Of a stretch of 64,000 nucleotides of DNA, positions 32,312 through 33,858 are shown piece after piece. Source of the DNA: a virus (taxonomy: Duplodnaviria; Heunggongvirae; Uroviricota; Caudoviricetes). The DNA lies in IMG/VR virus record IMGVR_UViG_3300045988_147321. One strand, 5' to 3'. The translations under genes and the position numbers were made by a program. Numbering within the stretch: the stretch's first letter is position 1; every line of letters starts with the position of its first letter. Under the pieces are notes generated by a model. The model was not told the origin of the DNA, searched no databases, and saw only the letters and a list, made by a program, of their open reading frames with translations.

Positions 32312-32776
32312 CAGGGTTTTCGTCATGGTTAGCGACTTTGCGGCGGTTTAGAAACTGACCATTAAAGTAAATGCAAACGATGATCTGATGATGGTAGCGG
32401 CCTAAGAAACCAGATGCCACGGGGTATGAGTCGTCCCCCGTCAAAAAAATCGACCGCAGAGTGTCCCCGTCTGTGTATTAGGGAACGGGGAGGCACAACA
32501 GGTAAGGGCGCTGGTGTGATTAACCAGATGAACGAGAAGGGGCCATCTGTTGGTCAGCGTCCTTTCCTGTTGCGTTTTCTTTTCAGCGTAACAGCGGTGC
32601 TTAACAGCACTTTGGGTACAGTTCCACGAATTTACGGGTATATCCCGTCATGCTGAAGGCGCTAATCACGCTGGAAGCCAGGGTTGTGCATCCCCTGTTA
32701 CCGAATTGCAGCCAGGGCGCGGTGCGCCGAAAAGCATACGGAGGTGGAAGCCCTCGCCGGAGACGTACCCGGCAAG

Positions 32777-32852
32777 TGATGGTGTAGCTCAGCGGTTAGA
32801 GCGGTTGACTGTTAATCAACGGGTCGATGGTTCAAATCCATCCACCATCGCC
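32777..32852 (+). tRNA. tRNA-Asn (anticodon GTT)
   Basis: Hand-folded cloverleaf: 7-bp acceptor stem GATGGTG/CACCATC, T-arm GATGG-TTCAAAT-CCATC, anticodon loop CTGTTAA, 3' CCA encoded. Confidence 0.85.
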
Positions 32853-32854
32853 AA

Positions 32855-32930
32855 TGCCGGTTTAGCTCAGTTGGTAGAGCGCCTGCCTTGTAAGCAGGAT
32901 GTCAGCGGTTCGAGTCCGTTAATCGGCACC
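32855..32930 (+). tRNA. tRNA-Thr (anticodon TGT)
   Basis: Hand-folded cloverleaf: acceptor GCCGGTT/AATCGGC, anticodon loop CTTGTAA, GGTTCGAGTCC T-loop, 3' CCA encoded. Confidence 0.85.
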
Positions 32931-33858
32931 AGCACAACAGGTAAGGGTATTTTGCGACGTCGGAGATCGCCGAGCTTGGCAGAGGGTTCGAATCCCTACG
33001 AAGTACCCTTACCGTTGTGATGAATGCGCAGGCTGATGCGCGAAAGACATTGCAGCTATTGCGGAAAAGAGCTGTTCGGCGGGGCAATTAAACGCCCGTG
33101 AGAGTCTGAAATAACCGCAAGCCGGAGATCAGCACCGGTCATCACAACACAACAGGTAAGGGCATTCTCCCTTATGGGGCTTGGCTTAAATGCATCGAGT
33201 GCTCTTACCGTTGTGATGAAGTGCAGCTCTTTGAAGCAACCAGAAGATAAGCATCTGGCTTCACAACATAAACCGCAGGAACGACCAATAAACGGTAGTC
33301 CGTATGGAGAACACCCCGTTGAGGAAGAGGCCTGGCCGGAACCGTAACCGGCACTACAACGTTGAGAACACTGGCGTAACGGGGTCATATCCCAATCTAC
33401 GAATAAATGTTGCGTTGCAGCGTGACAACCAGTGTTCTCAACATTGTGGTGAATGCACAGGCTGATGTGCCGCAACTACAGTAGTGCGCGCTTTGCGGGG
33501 CTTGCTACAACCCTGTGTCGGAGTTCAGCACCGACCATCACAGTTTGATTCTCTGGCATGAGCATAACGCTGAAATAAGTCCAGTCTGGTGCGGCCCGAT
33601 CACTCGCCGTTAGCTCCACGAAACGGAGCACGTAACAGGTAAGAGCATTCTCCTGTAACGGGTTCATATCCCAATCTACAGGTCCACCAGGAATGCTCTT
33701 TCCGTTGCGGTGAATGCGGCTAAGCGCACGCGGGGAAATGGTTATATCTGTCCATTATTTCTCCTTATTTCCCCGTCCACGGTGGATAACCAGCCAAAGG
33801 ACACCGGGAGGCACCCGGCACCGCAACCTTATTTCCCAACCAGTAATGAGGTTAATAA

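What the first reader, a model, noticed from the sequence alone, without database searches (positions are those of the whole stretch)
32495..33725. Array of long-stem structured repeats around the tRNA-Asn/tRNA-Thr pair
At least four imperfect copies of a 90-110 nt unit occur in an apparently non-coding 1.3 kb. Each unit has a 5' arm CACAACAGGTAAGrG and a 3' arm CCGTTGyGrTGAAkGC that can pair into an 11-18 bp stem. One unit contains a tRNA T-loop-like GGTTCGAATCC and two share GGGTyCATATCCCAATCTAC. The listed ORFs here (33056-33475, 33476-33667) are Cys-rich and reuse the peptide ENALTC, as expected from translating nucleotide repeats. This looks like a family of tRNA-derived or small structured RNAs rather than protein genes.
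Basis: seen in the sequence. Interest (0 to 1): 0.6.

Follow-up and report, generated by a model that had tools for sequence, protein, structure and literature searches.

The report
Phage array of tRNA-shaped RNA modules
The "repeats" around the two tRNA genes of this P1-like phage are real, conserved RNA structures: long hairpins alternating with tRNA-shaped cloverleafs that belong to a large, apparently undescribed RNA family found in phage operon leaders (phage lambda included) across many bacterial phyla, and they are not the protein genes plp and upl annotated there.

Summary
The window is a P1-like phage. The finding lies in the untranslated leader of the C1-repressed ban operon, on the + strand.

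Two module types alternate with the real tRNAs:
- **Long-stem units U1-U5.** U4 and U5 (weakly U3) match a covariance model built from lambdoid phages. Sense hits score about 90-100 bits against about 27 antisense, and 19 base pairs show compensatory changes.
Each has a closing stem, a D-arm-like hairpin (loop AGRCUGAU), a variable centre and a T-arm-like hairpin (loop AGAUCAGYR). The two loops are complementary and covary (Fisher p = 4e-5).

TL modules were found in more than 120 viral contigs and in 72 of 80 species genomes sampled by one 23-nt motif, spanning several phyla. Lambda carries a unit plus a TL variant directly after tR'. Rfam 15 holds only a distant relative, STnc100, which corresponds to the fourth TL just upstream of tciA. 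Each unit's 3' arm shares 6 nt with the next TL's 5' strand, so the two helices exclude each other.

plp and upl are very probably spurious. Function is inferred, not shown: most likely processing and stabilising punctuation that releases tRNAs and stable small RNAs. A tmRNA-like tag frame lies just upstream.

The parts
32096..32123 (+). C1 operator Oban overlapping promoters P1ban/P2ban. This is the start of the transcript that carries everything listed below.
   Evidence: Transferred from the P1 annotation through the 99% alignment.
32220..32321 (+). 'dicF-like region' of the P1 annotation, ending in an intrinsic terminator at 32283-32311.
   Evidence: Rfam DicF gave no hit at E up to 10.
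32340..32492 (+). Leader homologous to the coding piece of phage permuted tmRNA-like genes. The tag-like frame 32373-32405 reads ANDDLMMVAA*. Two hairpins follow it and keep pairing through compensatory changes.
   Evidence: Alignment with Klebsiella phage K751 and Citrobacter phage Moogle. ARAGORN calls a permuted tmRNA in Moogle. Rfam tmRNA_permuted scores 24.1 bits here, below its gathering score of 47.
32494..32574 (+). Long-stem unit U1, with the shared 5' arm CACAACAGGTAAGGG. It is followed by a U-rich run at 32575-32584.
   Evidence: Fold z = -5.0. Repeat family D4. Model R1 did not detect it.
32778..32853 (+). tRNA-Asn (GUU).
32856..32931 (+). tRNA-Thr (UGU), with CCA encoded. U2 starts 2 nt later.
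32933..33019 (+). Long-stem unit U2. Its interior holds a canonical-looking T-arm, GGGTTCGAATCCC.
   Evidence: Fold z = -4.4. Homologous arms occur in K751. Neither ARAGORN nor the Rfam tRNA model calls it a tRNA.
33014..33148 (+). tRNA-shaped module TL-A. The closing stem pairs GUUGUGAUG with CAUCACAAC. Ha is at 33026-33041 (loop AGGCUGAU). Hb is at 33121-33139 (loop AGAUCAGCA). Its first 6 nt are also the end of U2's 3' arm.
   Evidence: Model R2 scores 79 bits, E = 2e-18. Custom scan found 9 of 9 closing pairs. Much of it is 96-98% identical to lambdoid phages such as mEp460. Part of it is absent from P1 itself.
33147..33218 (+). Long-stem unit U3. Its interior, CCCUUAUGGGGCUUGGCUUAAAUGCAUCGAG, is conserved next to a tRNA-Arg in the tRNA cluster of the virulent phage Moogle.
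   Evidence: Model R1 scores 20.9 bits, E = 0.002. Fold z = -4.8. Moogle copy.
33210..33267 (+). Reduced module TL-B. The closing stem pairs GUUGUGAUG with CUUCACAAC. An Hb-type hairpin, CCAGA-AGAUAAGCA-UCUGG, is present. There is no clear Ha.
   Evidence: Custom scan found 8 of 9 pairs. Repeat family D2. The fold alone is not significant.
33335..33352 (+). Hb-type hairpin GCCGG-AACCGUAA-CCGGC, followed by ACUACAAC, which leads into U4.
   Evidence: The same element occurs in K751.
33353..33450 (+). Long-stem unit U4, of the type carrying the anticodon-arm-like hairpin. It has a long closing stem P1, a stem P2 enclosing AC-GGG-GUCAUAU-CCC-AAUC, and a variable hairpin P3.
   Evidence: Model R1 scores 62.2 bits, E = 1.7e-15. 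Fold z = -5.6.
33443..33544 (+). tRNA-shaped module TL-C. The closing stem pairs AUUGUGGUG with CAUCACAGU. Ha has the stem GCAC/GUGC, a compensatory variant. Hb is GUCGG-AGUUCAGCA-CCGAC.
   Evidence: Model R2 scores 73.9 bits, E = 4e-17. Custom scan found 9 of 9 pairs. The minimum-free-energy fold is a cloverleaf.
33630..33711 (+). Long-stem unit U5, of the anticodon-arm-like type (AC-GGG-UUCAUAU-CCC-AAUC). It has no P3.
   Evidence: Model R1 scores 61.9 bits, E = 1.9e-15. Fold z = -4.5.
33704..33831 (+). Module TL-D, a STnc100-like element. The closing stem pairs GUUGCGGUG with CACCGCAAC. The T-like hairpin is CCGGG-AGGCA-CCCGG. It lies 27 nt upstream of tciA.
   Evidence: Rfam STnc100 scores 39.2 bits against a gathering score of 47, E = 2.8e-6. 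Model R2 scores 25 bits, E = 3e-4.
33056..33475 (-). ORF annotated as plp in P1-type records. Judged not to be a gene.
   Evidence: No Pfam or PHROG family. The C-terminus differs entirely between P1 and this window because of a 196-nt indel. In P1 it overlaps tRNA-Thr in antisense. PGAP and the P7 annotators do not call it.
33476..33667 (-). ORF annotated as upl. Judged not to be a gene.
   Evidence: It matches only PHROGs of unknown function. In SJ46 the S4 segment, which this ORF largely overlaps, is missing because U4 and U5 are fused. No promoter-like site was found in the region.

Best explanation
**What it is (well supported)**
The 1.7 kb between Pban and tciA is a non-coding 'RNA island', transcribed on the + strand as the leader of the C1-repressed ban operon. 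Real tRNAs (Asn, Thr) are interleaved with two kinds of conserved structured modules.
- **Long-stem units.** Each has a helix of about 15-25 bp closing a variable apical domain. In U4 and U5 that domain presents GGG-NUCAUAN-CCC, a mini-hairpin that looks like the anticodon arm of a CAU (Met-type) tRNA.
- **TL modules.** These are cloverleafs with tRNA dimensions: an acceptor-like stem of about 7-9 bp with invariant GGUG/CACC, an AAU linker, a 4-bp D-like arm, a variable centre of 20-200 nt, and a 5-bp T-like arm directly abutting the acceptor 3' strand. The D-like and T-like loops pair with each other (GCUGAU with AUCAGC).

The last 6 nt of each unit's 3' arm are also the first 6 nt of the following TL's acceptor strand. 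The base of the hairpin and the TL acceptor stem therefore cannot both be fully formed.

**How it most likely works (inferred, not shown)**
1. After derepression, the long precursor is cut at these modules by the host's tRNA and rRNA maturation nucleases. RNase III would cut the roughly two-turn hairpins. RNase P and RNase E would act at the tRNAs and the tRNA-shaped modules.
2. This frees the tRNAs and separates them from the downstream tciABC-tRNA(CAU)-ban message.
3. Each product is left with a base-paired end that resists 5'-end-dependent RNase E and 3' exonucleases.
4. The excised TL and hairpin bodies persist as stable small RNAs. The only experimentally detected relative, STnc100, is such an RNA.
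5. The shared 6-nt strand would make formation or cleavage of one module conditional on the other.

The - strand ORFs plp and upl are by-products of translating the repeats.
For: **Location in the ban operon**
- Searches place the region in the operon leader.
- No promoter-like site lies inside the region, against 2.7 expected.

**Units are structured and strand-specific**
-. On the fitted alignment 93.4% of cells are paired, against 41-55% when partners are slid, and 19 pairs change on both sides.

**TL structure**
- Closing stem tested without selecting for it: 8.04 of 9 pairs, against 2.8-6.0 when shifted, with 45 distinct stem variants.
- The whole structure including the loop-loop helix is 96.5% paired, against 27-53% when slid, with 13 pairs changed on both sides.
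- The loop-loop covariation is G-C 76, G-U 13, A-U 7, A-C 1, Fisher p = 4e-5.
- In an independent sample of one genome per species, 76 hits gave 92.7% paired against 33-53%.
- In that sample the outer two closing pairs are often open, leaving 7 + 5 = 12 stacked base pairs, as in tRNA.
- A scan for 'T-type hairpin followed by acceptor strand' recovers tRNA-Asn alongside TL-A, TL-B and TL-C.

**Coupling of unit and TL**
- 63 of 94 TLs are preceded by a hairpin of at least 14 bp ending in the TL 5' strand, against 13 of 90 controls.

**Association with tRNAs and operon starts**
- Units abut tRNA ends in P1, P7, CMS-2020a, an E. coli prophage and Moogle.
- TLs sit just after lambda tR', after PL in mEp460-type phages, and at about +1 of sigma-70-like promoters in 5 of 25 cases lacking an upstream hairpin.

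**A stable RNA from a relative**
- STnc100 was detected by RT-qPCR in vesicle preparations and is discussed as a prophage-encoded sRNA related to the Hfq-associated PasD (PMC12370729; bioRxiv 10.64898/2026.05.13.724894).

**Precedent, from my own knowledge**
- The P1 C4 RNA precursor and phi80 M3 RNA are listed as RNase P substrates in PMC11143913.

**Not coding**
-.
Against: - No transcript, 5'-end or cleavage data were available for P1, so every processing step is inference.
- TL modules are not recognised by tRNA models.
- A 3' CCA follows only a minority: 36 of 97 in phage contigs and about 17 of 80 across species, and not at the exact tRNA offset. RNase P recognition is therefore not assured.
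- Across species only 7 of 80 TLs have a tRNA within 1.5 kb, so releasing tRNAs cannot be the general role of TL.
- The Ha and Hb loop sequences and GGUG/CACC are nearly invariant across phyla. This suggests recognition by a specific conserved partner, which simple 'punctuation' does not explain.
- The minimum-free-energy z-scores of isolated TLs are modest, about -1.4.
- The covariation counts use related sequences, and partly use alignments fitted to the model.
Confidence: 0.45

Rival explanations
1. The modules are genes for trans-acting, Hfq-type regulatory small RNAs, like STnc100 and PasD. TL would be a stabilising scaffold, and a single-stranded flank or loop would be the seed that pairs with host or phage mRNAs. 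The conserved NUCAUAN loop, which fits a YUNR U-turn, would pair with start-codon regions.
For: - TL-D is STnc100-like.
- STnc100 and PasD are detected sRNAs. [quoted passage not shown]
- In many phages a TL is followed within about 25-60 nt by an intrinsic terminator, the usual sRNA architecture (rows 23-25, 37, 38; 15 of 80 by the crude terminator proxy).
- Some TLs start at about +1 of a promoter.
Against: - In this window no TL or unit has its own promoter or terminator.
- The conserved parts are the structured core rather than a plausible seed, and the flanks vary.
- No target complementary to the loop was enriched in the window: 25 matches against 21.8 expected.
- Cross-phylum invariance is unusual for base-pairing sRNAs, which evolve quickly.
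Confidence: 0.2
2. The modules are tRNA mimics that act as decoys or sponges for tRNA-directed host factors. Candidates are anticodon nucleases or acceptor-end-modifying toxins of defence and toxin-antitoxin systems, or tRNA-binding enzymes. This would protect the host tRNA pool, complementing the phage's own tRNAs.
For: - TL has tRNA dimensions and a D/T-type loop contact.
- The hairpin in U4, U5 and the lambdoid units is GGG-(C/U/G)UCAUA(A/U)-CCC. GGGCUCAUAACCC is also the anticodon arm of a real phage tRNA-Met seen next to a TL in locus L133, and of E. coli initiator tRNA (my own knowledge).
- The modules sit in tRNA islands of P1-like, Ounavirinae and Ackermannviridae phages.
- Conservation across phyla fits a universal, tRNA-directed partner.
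Against: - No defence system or binding partner was identified, and nothing was tested.
- Most TLs across species are not near tRNAs.
- The anticodon-arm motif was part of the search pattern that collected the lambdoid copies, so its conservation is partly circular.
- TL lacks an anticodon arm and usually lacks a correctly placed CCA.
Confidence: 0.15
3. TL, alone or with its hairpin, is a cis-acting element that modifies RNA polymerase, analogous to HK022 put RNA or nut/boxA sites. It would make transcription of long phage operons resistant to terminators.
For: - TLs lie at the start of early-left, early-right and late operons. Examples: downstream of PL in mEp460 and L047, upstream of N-like, Cro-like, exonuclease-like and holin genes, and at about +1 of promoters.
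- In lambdoid units a boxA-like CGCYCUUUUUAC precedes the hairpin.
- Near-invariant loops would fit binding to a universally conserved enzyme.
Against: - The architecture differs from put, which is two stem-loops in a V shape of about 70 nt with no closing stem (PMC9378689).
- In lambda-type phages the element lies after tR' and next to a functional Q. In P1 it lies after the leader terminator.
- The boxA-like run is predicted to be base-paired as the outer part of the hairpin.
- Some TLs are immediately followed by terminators that would end the transcript.
Confidence: 0.1
4. The repeats act at the DNA level. They would be recombination linkers or boundary sequences that let phages exchange tRNA and moron cassettes, or relics of decayed tRNA genes, with no RNA function. 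Alternatively, plp and upl could be real genes.
For: - Every structural difference among P1-like phages has its breakpoints inside the repeated arms or motifs. Examples are the P1 196-bp deletion, the SJ46 U4/U5 fusion, and tRNA-Tyr and tRNA-Ser gain or loss.
- A 137-nt segment is 98% identical between P1-like and lambdoid phages.
Against: - Helices are maintained by compensatory and G-U changes on one strand only. Neither DNA homology nor decay predicts this.
- The non-tRNA loop sequences are conserved across phyla.
- For the coding alternative, see the plp and upl entries under parts.
- Recombination at the repeats is real, but it is a consequence that is compatible with an RNA function.
Confidence: 0.07

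Closest known systems
STnc100 (Rfam RF02076) and the related PasD prophage sRNAs
   Same: - Phage or prophage location in late-region leaders next to terB/tciA-type genes.
- Closing stem ending in GGUG...CACC, a GGUGAAU start, and a G+C-rich T-like hairpin directly before the closing 3' strand.
- TL-D of the window aligns to STnc100 model positions 31-147 and is also hit by my TL model.
   Different: - TL-D scores below the Rfam gathering score (39 against 47 bits).
- The canonical TLs (TL-A, TL-C) get no STnc100 hit at E up to 10.
- The Ha and Hb loops and their kissing contact are not features I could see in the STnc100 consensus.
- STnc100 has extra 5' and 3' parts.
- The function of STnc100 itself is unproven (PMC12370729).
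Phage T4 stable RNAs species 1 and 2 (rnaC, rnaD) in the T4 tRNA cluster
   Same: - Small structured non-tRNA RNAs encoded among phage tRNA genes and co-transcribed with them.
- rnaC pairs its ends and carries a T arm.
- Their function is still unknown (my own knowledge).
   Different: - No sequence or model relationship: model R2 has no hit in the T4 locus.
- rnaC has a canonical GGUUCGAAUCC T loop, which TL lacks.
tmRNA tRNA-like domain, and two-piece (permuted) tmRNA
   Same: - A tRNA-shaped acceptor/D/T frame with the anticodon arm replaced by a large insert.
- A tmRNA-like tag frame lies just upstream in the same leader. Homologous islands in K751 and Moogle combine tmRNA-like pieces, units and TLs.
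   Different: - TL has no canonical T loop and no tag frame. Where a CCA occurs after the closing stem it is not at the tRNA offset.
- ARAGORN and the Rfam tmRNA models do not call it.
RNase III processing hairpins of phage polycistronic RNAs (T7 early RNA sites, the lambda N-leader site) and rRNA operon processing stems
   Same: - Imperfect helices of roughly two turns between functional RNAs in one long transcript, some directly upstream of the first gene's ribosome-binding site, as in mEp460 and L047.
   Different: - Cleavage has not been shown.
- The units carry conserved apical domains that RNase III sites do not need.
- This comparison rests on my own knowledge of those systems.
RNase P-processed tRNA-like elements (P1/P7 C4 RNA precursor, phi80 M3 RNA, MALAT1-mascRNA)
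   Same: - A tRNA-shaped fold embedded in a longer transcript that could define RNA ends.
- P1 itself provides the C4 precedent (listed in PMC11143913).
   Different: - No evidence that RNase P cuts TL.
- The C4 Rfam model hits elsewhere, not here.
GOLLD and ROOL large ornate RNAs
   Same: - Phage or prophage-borne, elaborately structured RNAs of unknown function, reported next to tRNA genes (PMC12286853; my own knowledge).
   Different: - Different size, hosts and structure. No Rfam hit.

Membership tests
tRNA (RF00005 / ARAGORN) | A cloverleaf with an anticodon arm and a canonical T loop, detected by tRNA models. | tested here: not met
   Only the three real tRNAs are called. No unit or TL is reported even at E up to 10.
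tRNA-like geometry (resemblance only, not membership) | An acceptor stem stacked on a 5-bp T-type stem with no spacer, a 4-bp D-type arm after a short linker, and a D-loop/T-loop contact. | tested here: met
   The stacked helices total 7 + 5 bp, the linker is AAU, and the loop-loop helix covaries (p = 4e-5).
STnc100 (RF02076) | A score at or above Rfam's gathering threshold of 47 bits. | tested here: not met
   TL-D scores 39.2 bits, E = 2.8e-6. The P7 copy scores 43 bits. TL-A and TL-C give no hit.
STnc100 (RF02076) | A shared core architecture: closing stem, GGUGAAU, and a terminal G+C-rich hairpin followed by CACC. | tested here: met
   The Rfam alignment shows the closing stem and hairpin. 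The TL model cross-hits TL-D at 25 bits, E = 3e-4.
tmRNA (one-piece or permuted) | A tag reading frame with a resume codon, ending in a hydrophobic ...AA stop. | tested here: met
   32373-32405 reads GCA AAC GAU GAU ... GCG GCC UAA, giving ANDDLMMVAA*. It is homologous to the Moogle and K751 frames. This lies upstream of the finding.
tmRNA (one-piece or permuted) | A tRNA-like domain with a T arm and 3' CCA, and detection by ARAGORN or Rfam. | tested here: not met
   ARAGORN finds no tmRNA in the window. Rfam tmRNA_permuted scores 24.1 bits against 47. No CCA-ended acceptor piece was found, and U2's T-arm hairpin lacks a CCA.
HK022 put antiterminator RNA | About 70 nt, two stem-loops in a V shape with no closing stem, directly downstream of PL or PR. 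| tested here: not met
   The architecture differs (PMC9378689 compared). The location criterion is met only for some lambdoid copies.
T4 rnaC / rnaD | Sequence or structure similarity to the T4 stable RNAs. | tested here: not met
   Model R2 finds nothing in the T4 tRNA locus, and the folds differ. Only the tRNA-cluster context is shared.
RNase III substrate | About 20 bp or more of near-continuous double-stranded RNA. | tested here: met
   Predicted stems of U1-U5 and of the lambdoid units, about 25 bp.
RNase III substrate | Cleavage by RNase III. | not testable with these tools
   Needs in vitro cleavage or end mapping in an rnc mutant.
RNase P substrate | A 12-bp acceptor/T stack plus a 3' RCCA at the tRNA offset, and cleavage at the acceptor 5' end. 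| tested here: inconclusive
   The stack length fits. CCA is enriched after the stem but is present in only 21-37% of copies, and not at the exact tRNA offset. Cleavage is not testable here.
Protein-coding genes plp and upl | A conserved intact reading frame with family support. | tested here: not met
Type III toxin-antitoxin RNA arrays (ToxI-like) | Tandem head-to-tail repeats of about 34-36 nt, followed by a terminator and an endoRNase toxin gene. | tested here: not met
   Repeat spacings are 196-483 nt and the copies are imperfect. The downstream gene is a TerB-family protein.

The most novel reading that the evidence does not exclude
TL, together with its coupled hairpin, is an undescribed class of phage RNA found across phyla. 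It is a tRNA-shaped cloverleaf whose D/T elbow is replaced by a six-base-pair kissing helix, wired to an upstream hairpin through a shared strand so that the two folds exclude each other. It would be recognised by a universally conserved host machine (RNase P, the ribosome, RNA polymerase or a tRNA-directed immune nuclease) and would act as a switchable processing signal or a tRNA decoy. The same element sits unannotated between tR' and S in phage lambda. In P1-like and some virulent phages it is part of larger RNA islands that also hold tRNAs and tmRNA-like pieces.
Probability: 0.3. Interest if true: 0.85.

Novelty: new variant of a known kind. Interest (0 to 1): 0.72.

Why it matters
- **A hidden, widespread RNA family.** If the modules are functional RNAs, a conserved family has gone unnoticed in the best-studied phages. 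It occupies the lambda late leader and the P1 ban leader, and it occurs in prophages of many phyla.
- **A possible handle on an old question.** It could explain how phages mature tRNAs embedded in mRNAs and how they protect very long operon transcripts. It may also bear on the 50-year-old puzzle of the stable non-tRNA RNAs in phage tRNA clusters.
- **A practical correction.** plp and upl in P1-type records should be treated as doubtful, and the 1.7-kb leader should be annotated as RNA.
- **Links to known sRNAs.** STnc100 and PasD would be connected to a much larger structural family.
- **A tractable test case.** The kissing-loop cloverleaf and the strand-sharing hairpin make a simple system for studying RNA folding switches.

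Tried and rejected
- **Rfam 15.** Scanned the window region and seven related loci at permissive E-values. Only tRNAs, sub-threshold STnc100 and tmRNA hits, and chance miRNA-like hits on long hairpins were found. No hammerhead, HDV-like, twister, pistol, hatchet, GOLLD, ROOL, YrlA (apart from a chance hit over the tRNAs) or DicF.
- **put RNA and nut/boxA.** A boxA-like CGCYCUUUUUAC precedes the lambdoid units, but it is predicted to form the outer part of the hairpin. The put architecture differs.
- **Loop-to-start-codon pairing.** The downstream genes differ, and only AUG itself is complementary (read). No enrichment of loop complements in the window.
- **Integron attC-like sites or MITEs with target duplications.** The AAC...GTT ends resemble attC R boxes only loosely. 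The flanking 'direct repeat' covaries as a complement of the junction strand, which points to structure rather than duplication.
- **Small + strand ORFs starting in the GUGAAUGC tail.** One example is 33020-33091, MNAQADARKTLQLLRKRAVRRGN. No Shine-Dalgarno sequence is visible, frames differ between copies, and the tail is part of the TL stem and linker.
- **U2 as a tRNA or as a tmRNA acceptor piece.** No CCA, and no model hit.
- **T4 rnaC/rnaD as family members.** Rejected.
- **General link between TL and tRNAs across species.** Rejected: 7 of 80.
- **Common neighbouring protein family.** None found; the neighbours are heterogeneous.
- **Literature.** Full-text searches for the motif strings found nothing relevant. 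The P1 genome paper and the phi80 M3 paper were not held.

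
Full report
**Identity and setting**

The window is a P1-like phage or plasmid prophage, 99% identical over the region to phages JL22, RCS47 and P1. In the P1 annotation the finding lies between the C1-controlled promoter/operator Pban/Oban and tciA. That places it in the leader of the ban operon: dmt | Oban/Pban | 'dicF-like region' | trnA | trnT | (plp and upl on the opposite strand) | tciA-tciB-tciC | trnI | ban. ARAGORN and Rfam find tRNA-Asn (32778-32853), tRNA-Thr (32856-32931) and a CAU tRNA at 34559-34634. 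A strong intrinsic terminator lies at 32283-32311. No sigma-70-like promoter is found anywhere in 31900-35000, against 2.7 expected by shuffling. The region is therefore best read as an internal part of the + strand transcript from Pban.

**Checking the observation**

All the listed features are present.
- ACAGGTAAGRG occurs four times exactly, all on the + strand inside the region. Nine matches at up to 1 mismatch occur in the whole window, against 1.25 expected.
- Every unit folds much better than shuffled controls on the + strand (z -4.4 to -5.6). Every unit folds worse on the - strand, which is the signature of G-U pairs in a + strand RNA.
- The T-loop-like GGTTCGAATCC (U2), the motif shared by U4 and U5, and the ENALTC-containing ORFs are all there.

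**The long-stem units are a conserved RNA family**

Most are lambdoid prophages. The corresponding mEp460 leader is present in 2800 of 5426 complete E. coli genomes.
- *Architecture.* The copies share one layout. A long closing stem P1 has G-U pairs in the sense orientation. A stem P2 of 5-7 bp encloses the mini-hairpin A-C-GGG-NUCAUAN-CCC-AAUC. A variable hairpin P3 completes the fold.
- *Covariation.* An alignment of 19 diverse copies gave an RNAalifold consensus in which 17 of 28 pairs have compensatory changes.
- *Model R1.* Built from that alignment, it scores U4 at 62.2 bits, U5 at 61.9 bits and U3 at 20.9 bits in the window. In lambdoid loci it scores about 90-100 bits in sense against about 27-30 antisense.
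- *Pair counts.* On the model-fitted alignment 93.4% of cells are paired, against 41-55% when partners are slid. Nineteen pairs change on both sides. That alignment is fitted to the model and includes some antisense rows.
- *The mini-hairpin.* GGGCUCAUAACCC is also the anticodon arm of a real phage tRNA-Met seen next to one of these elements (L133). From my own knowledge it is also the anticodon arm of E. coli initiator tRNA. Because the motif was the search pattern, its conservation among the collected copies is partly circular.

**The 'spacers' are a second, tRNA-shaped module (TL)**

- *Conserved hairpins.* The spacers contain two conserved small hairpins. Ha is GCRC-AGRCUGAU-GYGC. Hb is GCCGG-AGAUCAGYR-CCGGC, followed by CAYCACAAC.
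The sequences show a common layout. A 5' strand GUUGUGGUG pairs with the 3' CACCACAAC. It is followed by AAU, then Ha, then a variable centre of 20-200 nt. Hb directly abuts the closing 3' strand. ViennaRNA predicts this cloverleaf unaided for short copies and for the window's TL-A and TL-C.
- *Closing stem, tested without selecting for it.* The 97 distinct Ha+Hb modules have on average 8.04 of 9 pairs, against 2.8-6.0 when the 3' strand is shifted. There are 45 different stem sequences.
- *Loop-loop contact.* The Ha loop GCUGAU is complementary to the Hb loop AUCAGC. The one variable position covaries: G-C 76, G-U 13, A-U 7, A-C 1, Fisher p = 4e-5. This test is not corrected for relatedness.
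- *Whole structure.* With the loop-loop helix written as a pseudoknot it is 96.5% paired, against 27-53% when slid, with 13 pairs changed on both sides.
- *Model R2 in the window.* Built, it finds TL-A at 33014-33152 (79 bits), TL-C at 33443-33548 (73.9 bits) and a weaker third copy at 33704-33831 (25 bits, E = 3e-4). A custom scan adds a reduced copy, TL-B, at 33210-33267. The same scan also recovers tRNA-Asn, which confirms that the geometry is that of a tRNA.

**Breadth of TL**

- *Hosts of the 23-nt motif.* An exact 23-nt Hb+CACC pattern occurs in 81 stretches of the one-genome-per-species collection. The record titles name Gamma-, Beta- and Alphaproteobacteria, Verrucomicrobiota, Planctomycetes, Acidobacteriota, Coriobacteriia, a Syntrophomonadaceae bacterium, Synechococcus and Ignavibacteria.
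- *Full-length hits.* R2 gives 76 full-length hits in 72 of the 80 loci searched, with 92.7% pairing against 33-53% when slid.
- *Stem length.* In this independent sample the two outermost closing pairs are often open (39 and 27 of 76 rows). Pairs 3-5 covary heavily and GGUG/CACC is invariant. The effective stack is therefore 7 + 5 = 12 bp, as in tRNA.
- *CCA.* A CCA is enriched just after the stem, in 36 of 97 copies against 5-17 of 97 in control windows, and in about 17 of 80 across species. It is neither universal nor at the exact tRNA offset.
- *Neighbours.* Only 7 of 80 have a tRNA within 1.5 kb. Neighbouring genes are heterogeneous: holins, N-like, Cro-like, exonuclease, HNH and Q-like upstream.
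- *Promoters and terminators.* Five of 25 TLs lacking an upstream hairpin start at about +1 of a sigma-70-like promoter. Others are followed by an intrinsic terminator.

**Coupling of the two modules**

Sixty-three of 94 TLs are immediately preceded by a hairpin of at least 14 bp whose 3' arm runs into the TL 5' strand, against 13 of 90 controls. The shared 6 nt (for example GUUGUG, CCUGUG or UUGGGG) can pair either with the start of the hairpin or with the end of the TL. Both partners covary with it. In the window, 33014-33019 is both the end of U2 (partner 32933-32938) and the start of TL-A (partner 33143-33148). The same holds for U3/TL-B, U4/TL-C and U5/TL-D. The base of each hairpin and the acceptor-like stem of the next TL therefore exclude each other.

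**Phage lambda and others**

- *Lambda.* CTGCACAACAGGTAAGAGCATT...GTGCTCTTTCCGTTGTG sits directly after tR'. A TL variant follows, closed by GUUGUGCUG/CAGCACAAC, between tR' and S (L235 about 988-1145). Nothing is annotated there except orf-64, which ends inside the hairpin. A lambda-like prophage has the full Ha/Hb TL at the same place.
- *mEp460 and L047.* The leader between PL and the first early-left gene contains a unit, a TL and a second unit.
- *Units next to tRNAs.* In an E. coli prophage a unit abuts the 5' end of tRNA-Arg. In P7, D6 and CMS-2020a a TL precedes tRNA-Ser by 4 nt and a unit follows it by 1 nt.
- *Virulent phages.* A U3-like hairpin sits before tRNA-Arg in the tRNA cluster of Citrobacter phage Moogle, a virulent phage of the Ounavirinae. 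Klebsiella phage K751 (Ackermannviridae) has a unit plus TL in a 2.6-kb unannotated stretch.
- *P1-like rearrangements.* Among P1-like phages every rearrangement has its breakpoints inside the repeated arms. These include the P1 196-bp deletion between the 3' arms of U2 and U3, the SJ46 U4/U5 fusion, and tRNA-Tyr and tRNA-Ser gain or loss.

**Relation to what is known**

- *Rfam.* Rfam 15 has no family for the units or the canonical TLs.
- *STnc100.* The third R2 hit coincides with a sub-threshold STnc100 match: 39.2 bits against a gathering score of 47, at 33706-33825. STnc100's closing stem, GGUGAAU start and terminal hairpin plus CACC correspond to TL features. STnc100 has been detected by RT-qPCR in vesicle preparations and lies 75 nt downstream of stx2 in Stx phages (PMC12370729). 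A 2026 preprint links it structurally to the abundant prophage sRNA PasD and notes TerB genes nearby (bioRxiv 10.64898/2026.05.13.724894). Its function is unproven.
- *Families rejected.* HK022 put RNA has a different architecture (PMC9378689). T4 rnaC and rnaD share only the tRNA-cluster context.
- *RNase P precedents.* RNase P substrates among phage RNAs, P1 C4 and phi80 M3, are listed in PMC11143913. I could not obtain the M3 sequence.
- *Motif strings.* Full-text searches for them found nothing relevant.

**Coding alternative**

- *plp-like ORF (33056-33475, - strand).* It has no Pfam or PHROG hit. It shares only its first 93 residues with P1 Plp, because the 196-nt indel, which is not a multiple of three, changes the rest. 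In P1 it runs antisense into tRNA-Thr.
- *upl.* It matches only PHROGs of unknown function.
- *Annotation elsewhere.* The P7 annotators call no CDS here. NCBI's pipeline annotates only the two tRNAs in 11 of the 12 listed 99.9%-identical plasmids.

**Mechanism**

*Shown by comparison:* two families of strand-specific, covarying RNA structures, their tRNA-like geometry, their coupling, and their placement in operon leaders and tRNA islands.

*Inferred:* the modules punctuate the long precursor.
- The roughly two-turn helices would be RNase III sites.
- The tRNA-shaped TLs, together with the real tRNAs, would recruit RNase P and RNase E.
- Base-paired ends would protect the released tRNAs, the downstream mRNA and the excised modules.
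- The shared strand would order or gate these events.

I give this about 0.45. The near-invariance of the Ha and Hb loops and of GGUG/CACC across phyla argues for a specific conserved partner. The rivals therefore stay open: trans-acting Hfq-type sRNAs 0.2, tRNA decoys against tRNA-directed immunity 0.15, a put-like polymerase modifier 0.1, and DNA-level linkers, relics or real ORFs 0.07.

**Verdict**

The region turns out to be one local instance of a widespread and apparently undescribed structured-RNA system in phages.

Noticed in passing
window 32340-32492 (tag frame 32373-32405): The ban leader upstream of the finding contains a tmRNA-like tag frame, GCA AAC GAU GAU CUG AUG AUG GUA GCG GCC UAA, giving ANDDLMMVAA*. 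Two hairpins after it are kept by compensatory changes. The stretch is homologous to parts of Klebsiella phage K751 (tag ANDNTFLAVA*) and Citrobacter phage Moogle, where ARAGORN calls a permuted tmRNA with tag ANDNVFLAVA**. Rfam tmRNA_permuted scores only 24 bits here against a gathering score of 47, and no CCA-ended acceptor piece was found in the window.
   Followed up: partly
window 32220-32321: The 'dicF-like region' of the P1 annotation ends in a strong intrinsic terminator (32283-32311) only about 190 nt downstream of Pban. Transcription must read through it to reach the tRNAs, tciABC and ban. Rfam DicF does not match it at E up to 10.
   Followed up: partly
L236 (Klebsiella phage K751) 472-3108: This 2.6-kb stretch of a virulent Ackermannviridae phage has no annotated gene and no ARAGORN tRNA. 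It holds T-arm/CCA-type pieces (about 1138-1195 and about 2150-2185), a tmRNA-like tag frame (about 1390-1422), a long-stem unit (1489-1585), a TL (1579-1678, R2 82 bits) and a further STnc100-like tail near 3030-3100. It looks like a larger version of the P1 RNA island.
   Followed up: partly
L235 (phage lambda) 988-1145, i.e. lambda about 44787-44944: Lambda carries a long-stem unit with the same arms as the window, plus a TL-like element closed by GUUGUGCUG/CAGCACAAC, directly after tR'. The only annotation nearby is orf-64, which ends inside the hairpin.
   Followed up: partly
L127 (P7) 2481-2568; L129 (CMS-2020a) 2982-3069; L005 (D6) 2607-2693: The extra tRNA-Ser (UGA) of some P1-like phages scores 44.6-46.6 bits on Rfam's tRNA-Sec model, just under its gathering score of 47. 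The D6 record notes that tRNAscan-SE would not assign its amino acid.
   Followed up: no
window 33020-33091 (+): A 23-codon arginine-rich ORF, MNAQADARKTLQLLRKRAVRRGN, starts in the GAUGAAUGC tail of U2 and TL-A. Related starts ((M/V)NA...) follow U4 and U5. No Shine-Dalgarno sequence is visible and the frames are not conserved, so it is probably chance.
   Followed up: partly
window 62344-62450 (-): There is a weak R1 hit (16 bits) whose arms contain TTAGAGCAAT / ATTGCTCTAA, the same word as at Oban (ATTGCTCTAATAAATTT, about 32096-32112). It is probably another C1 operator palindrome and not an RNA unit.
   Followed up: no
window 32587-32703: A possible sixth, degenerate unit lies between U1 and tRNA-Asn. 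It runs CGUAACAGC...CCUGUUACCGAAUUGC and has an ACGGGUAUAUCCCGUCA hairpin resembling the U4/U5 mini-hairpin. An Hb-type hairpin, GCCGG-AGACGUAC-CCGGC (32756-32773), sits 4 nt before tRNA-Asn.
   Followed up: no
L003 (mEp460) 470-658 (-): Rfam finds C4 antisense RNA (83.6 bits) and isrK (67 bits) next to the Rha-type antirepressor gene of this lambdoid phage. This is a P1-type immI module in a lambdoid genome.
   Followed up: no
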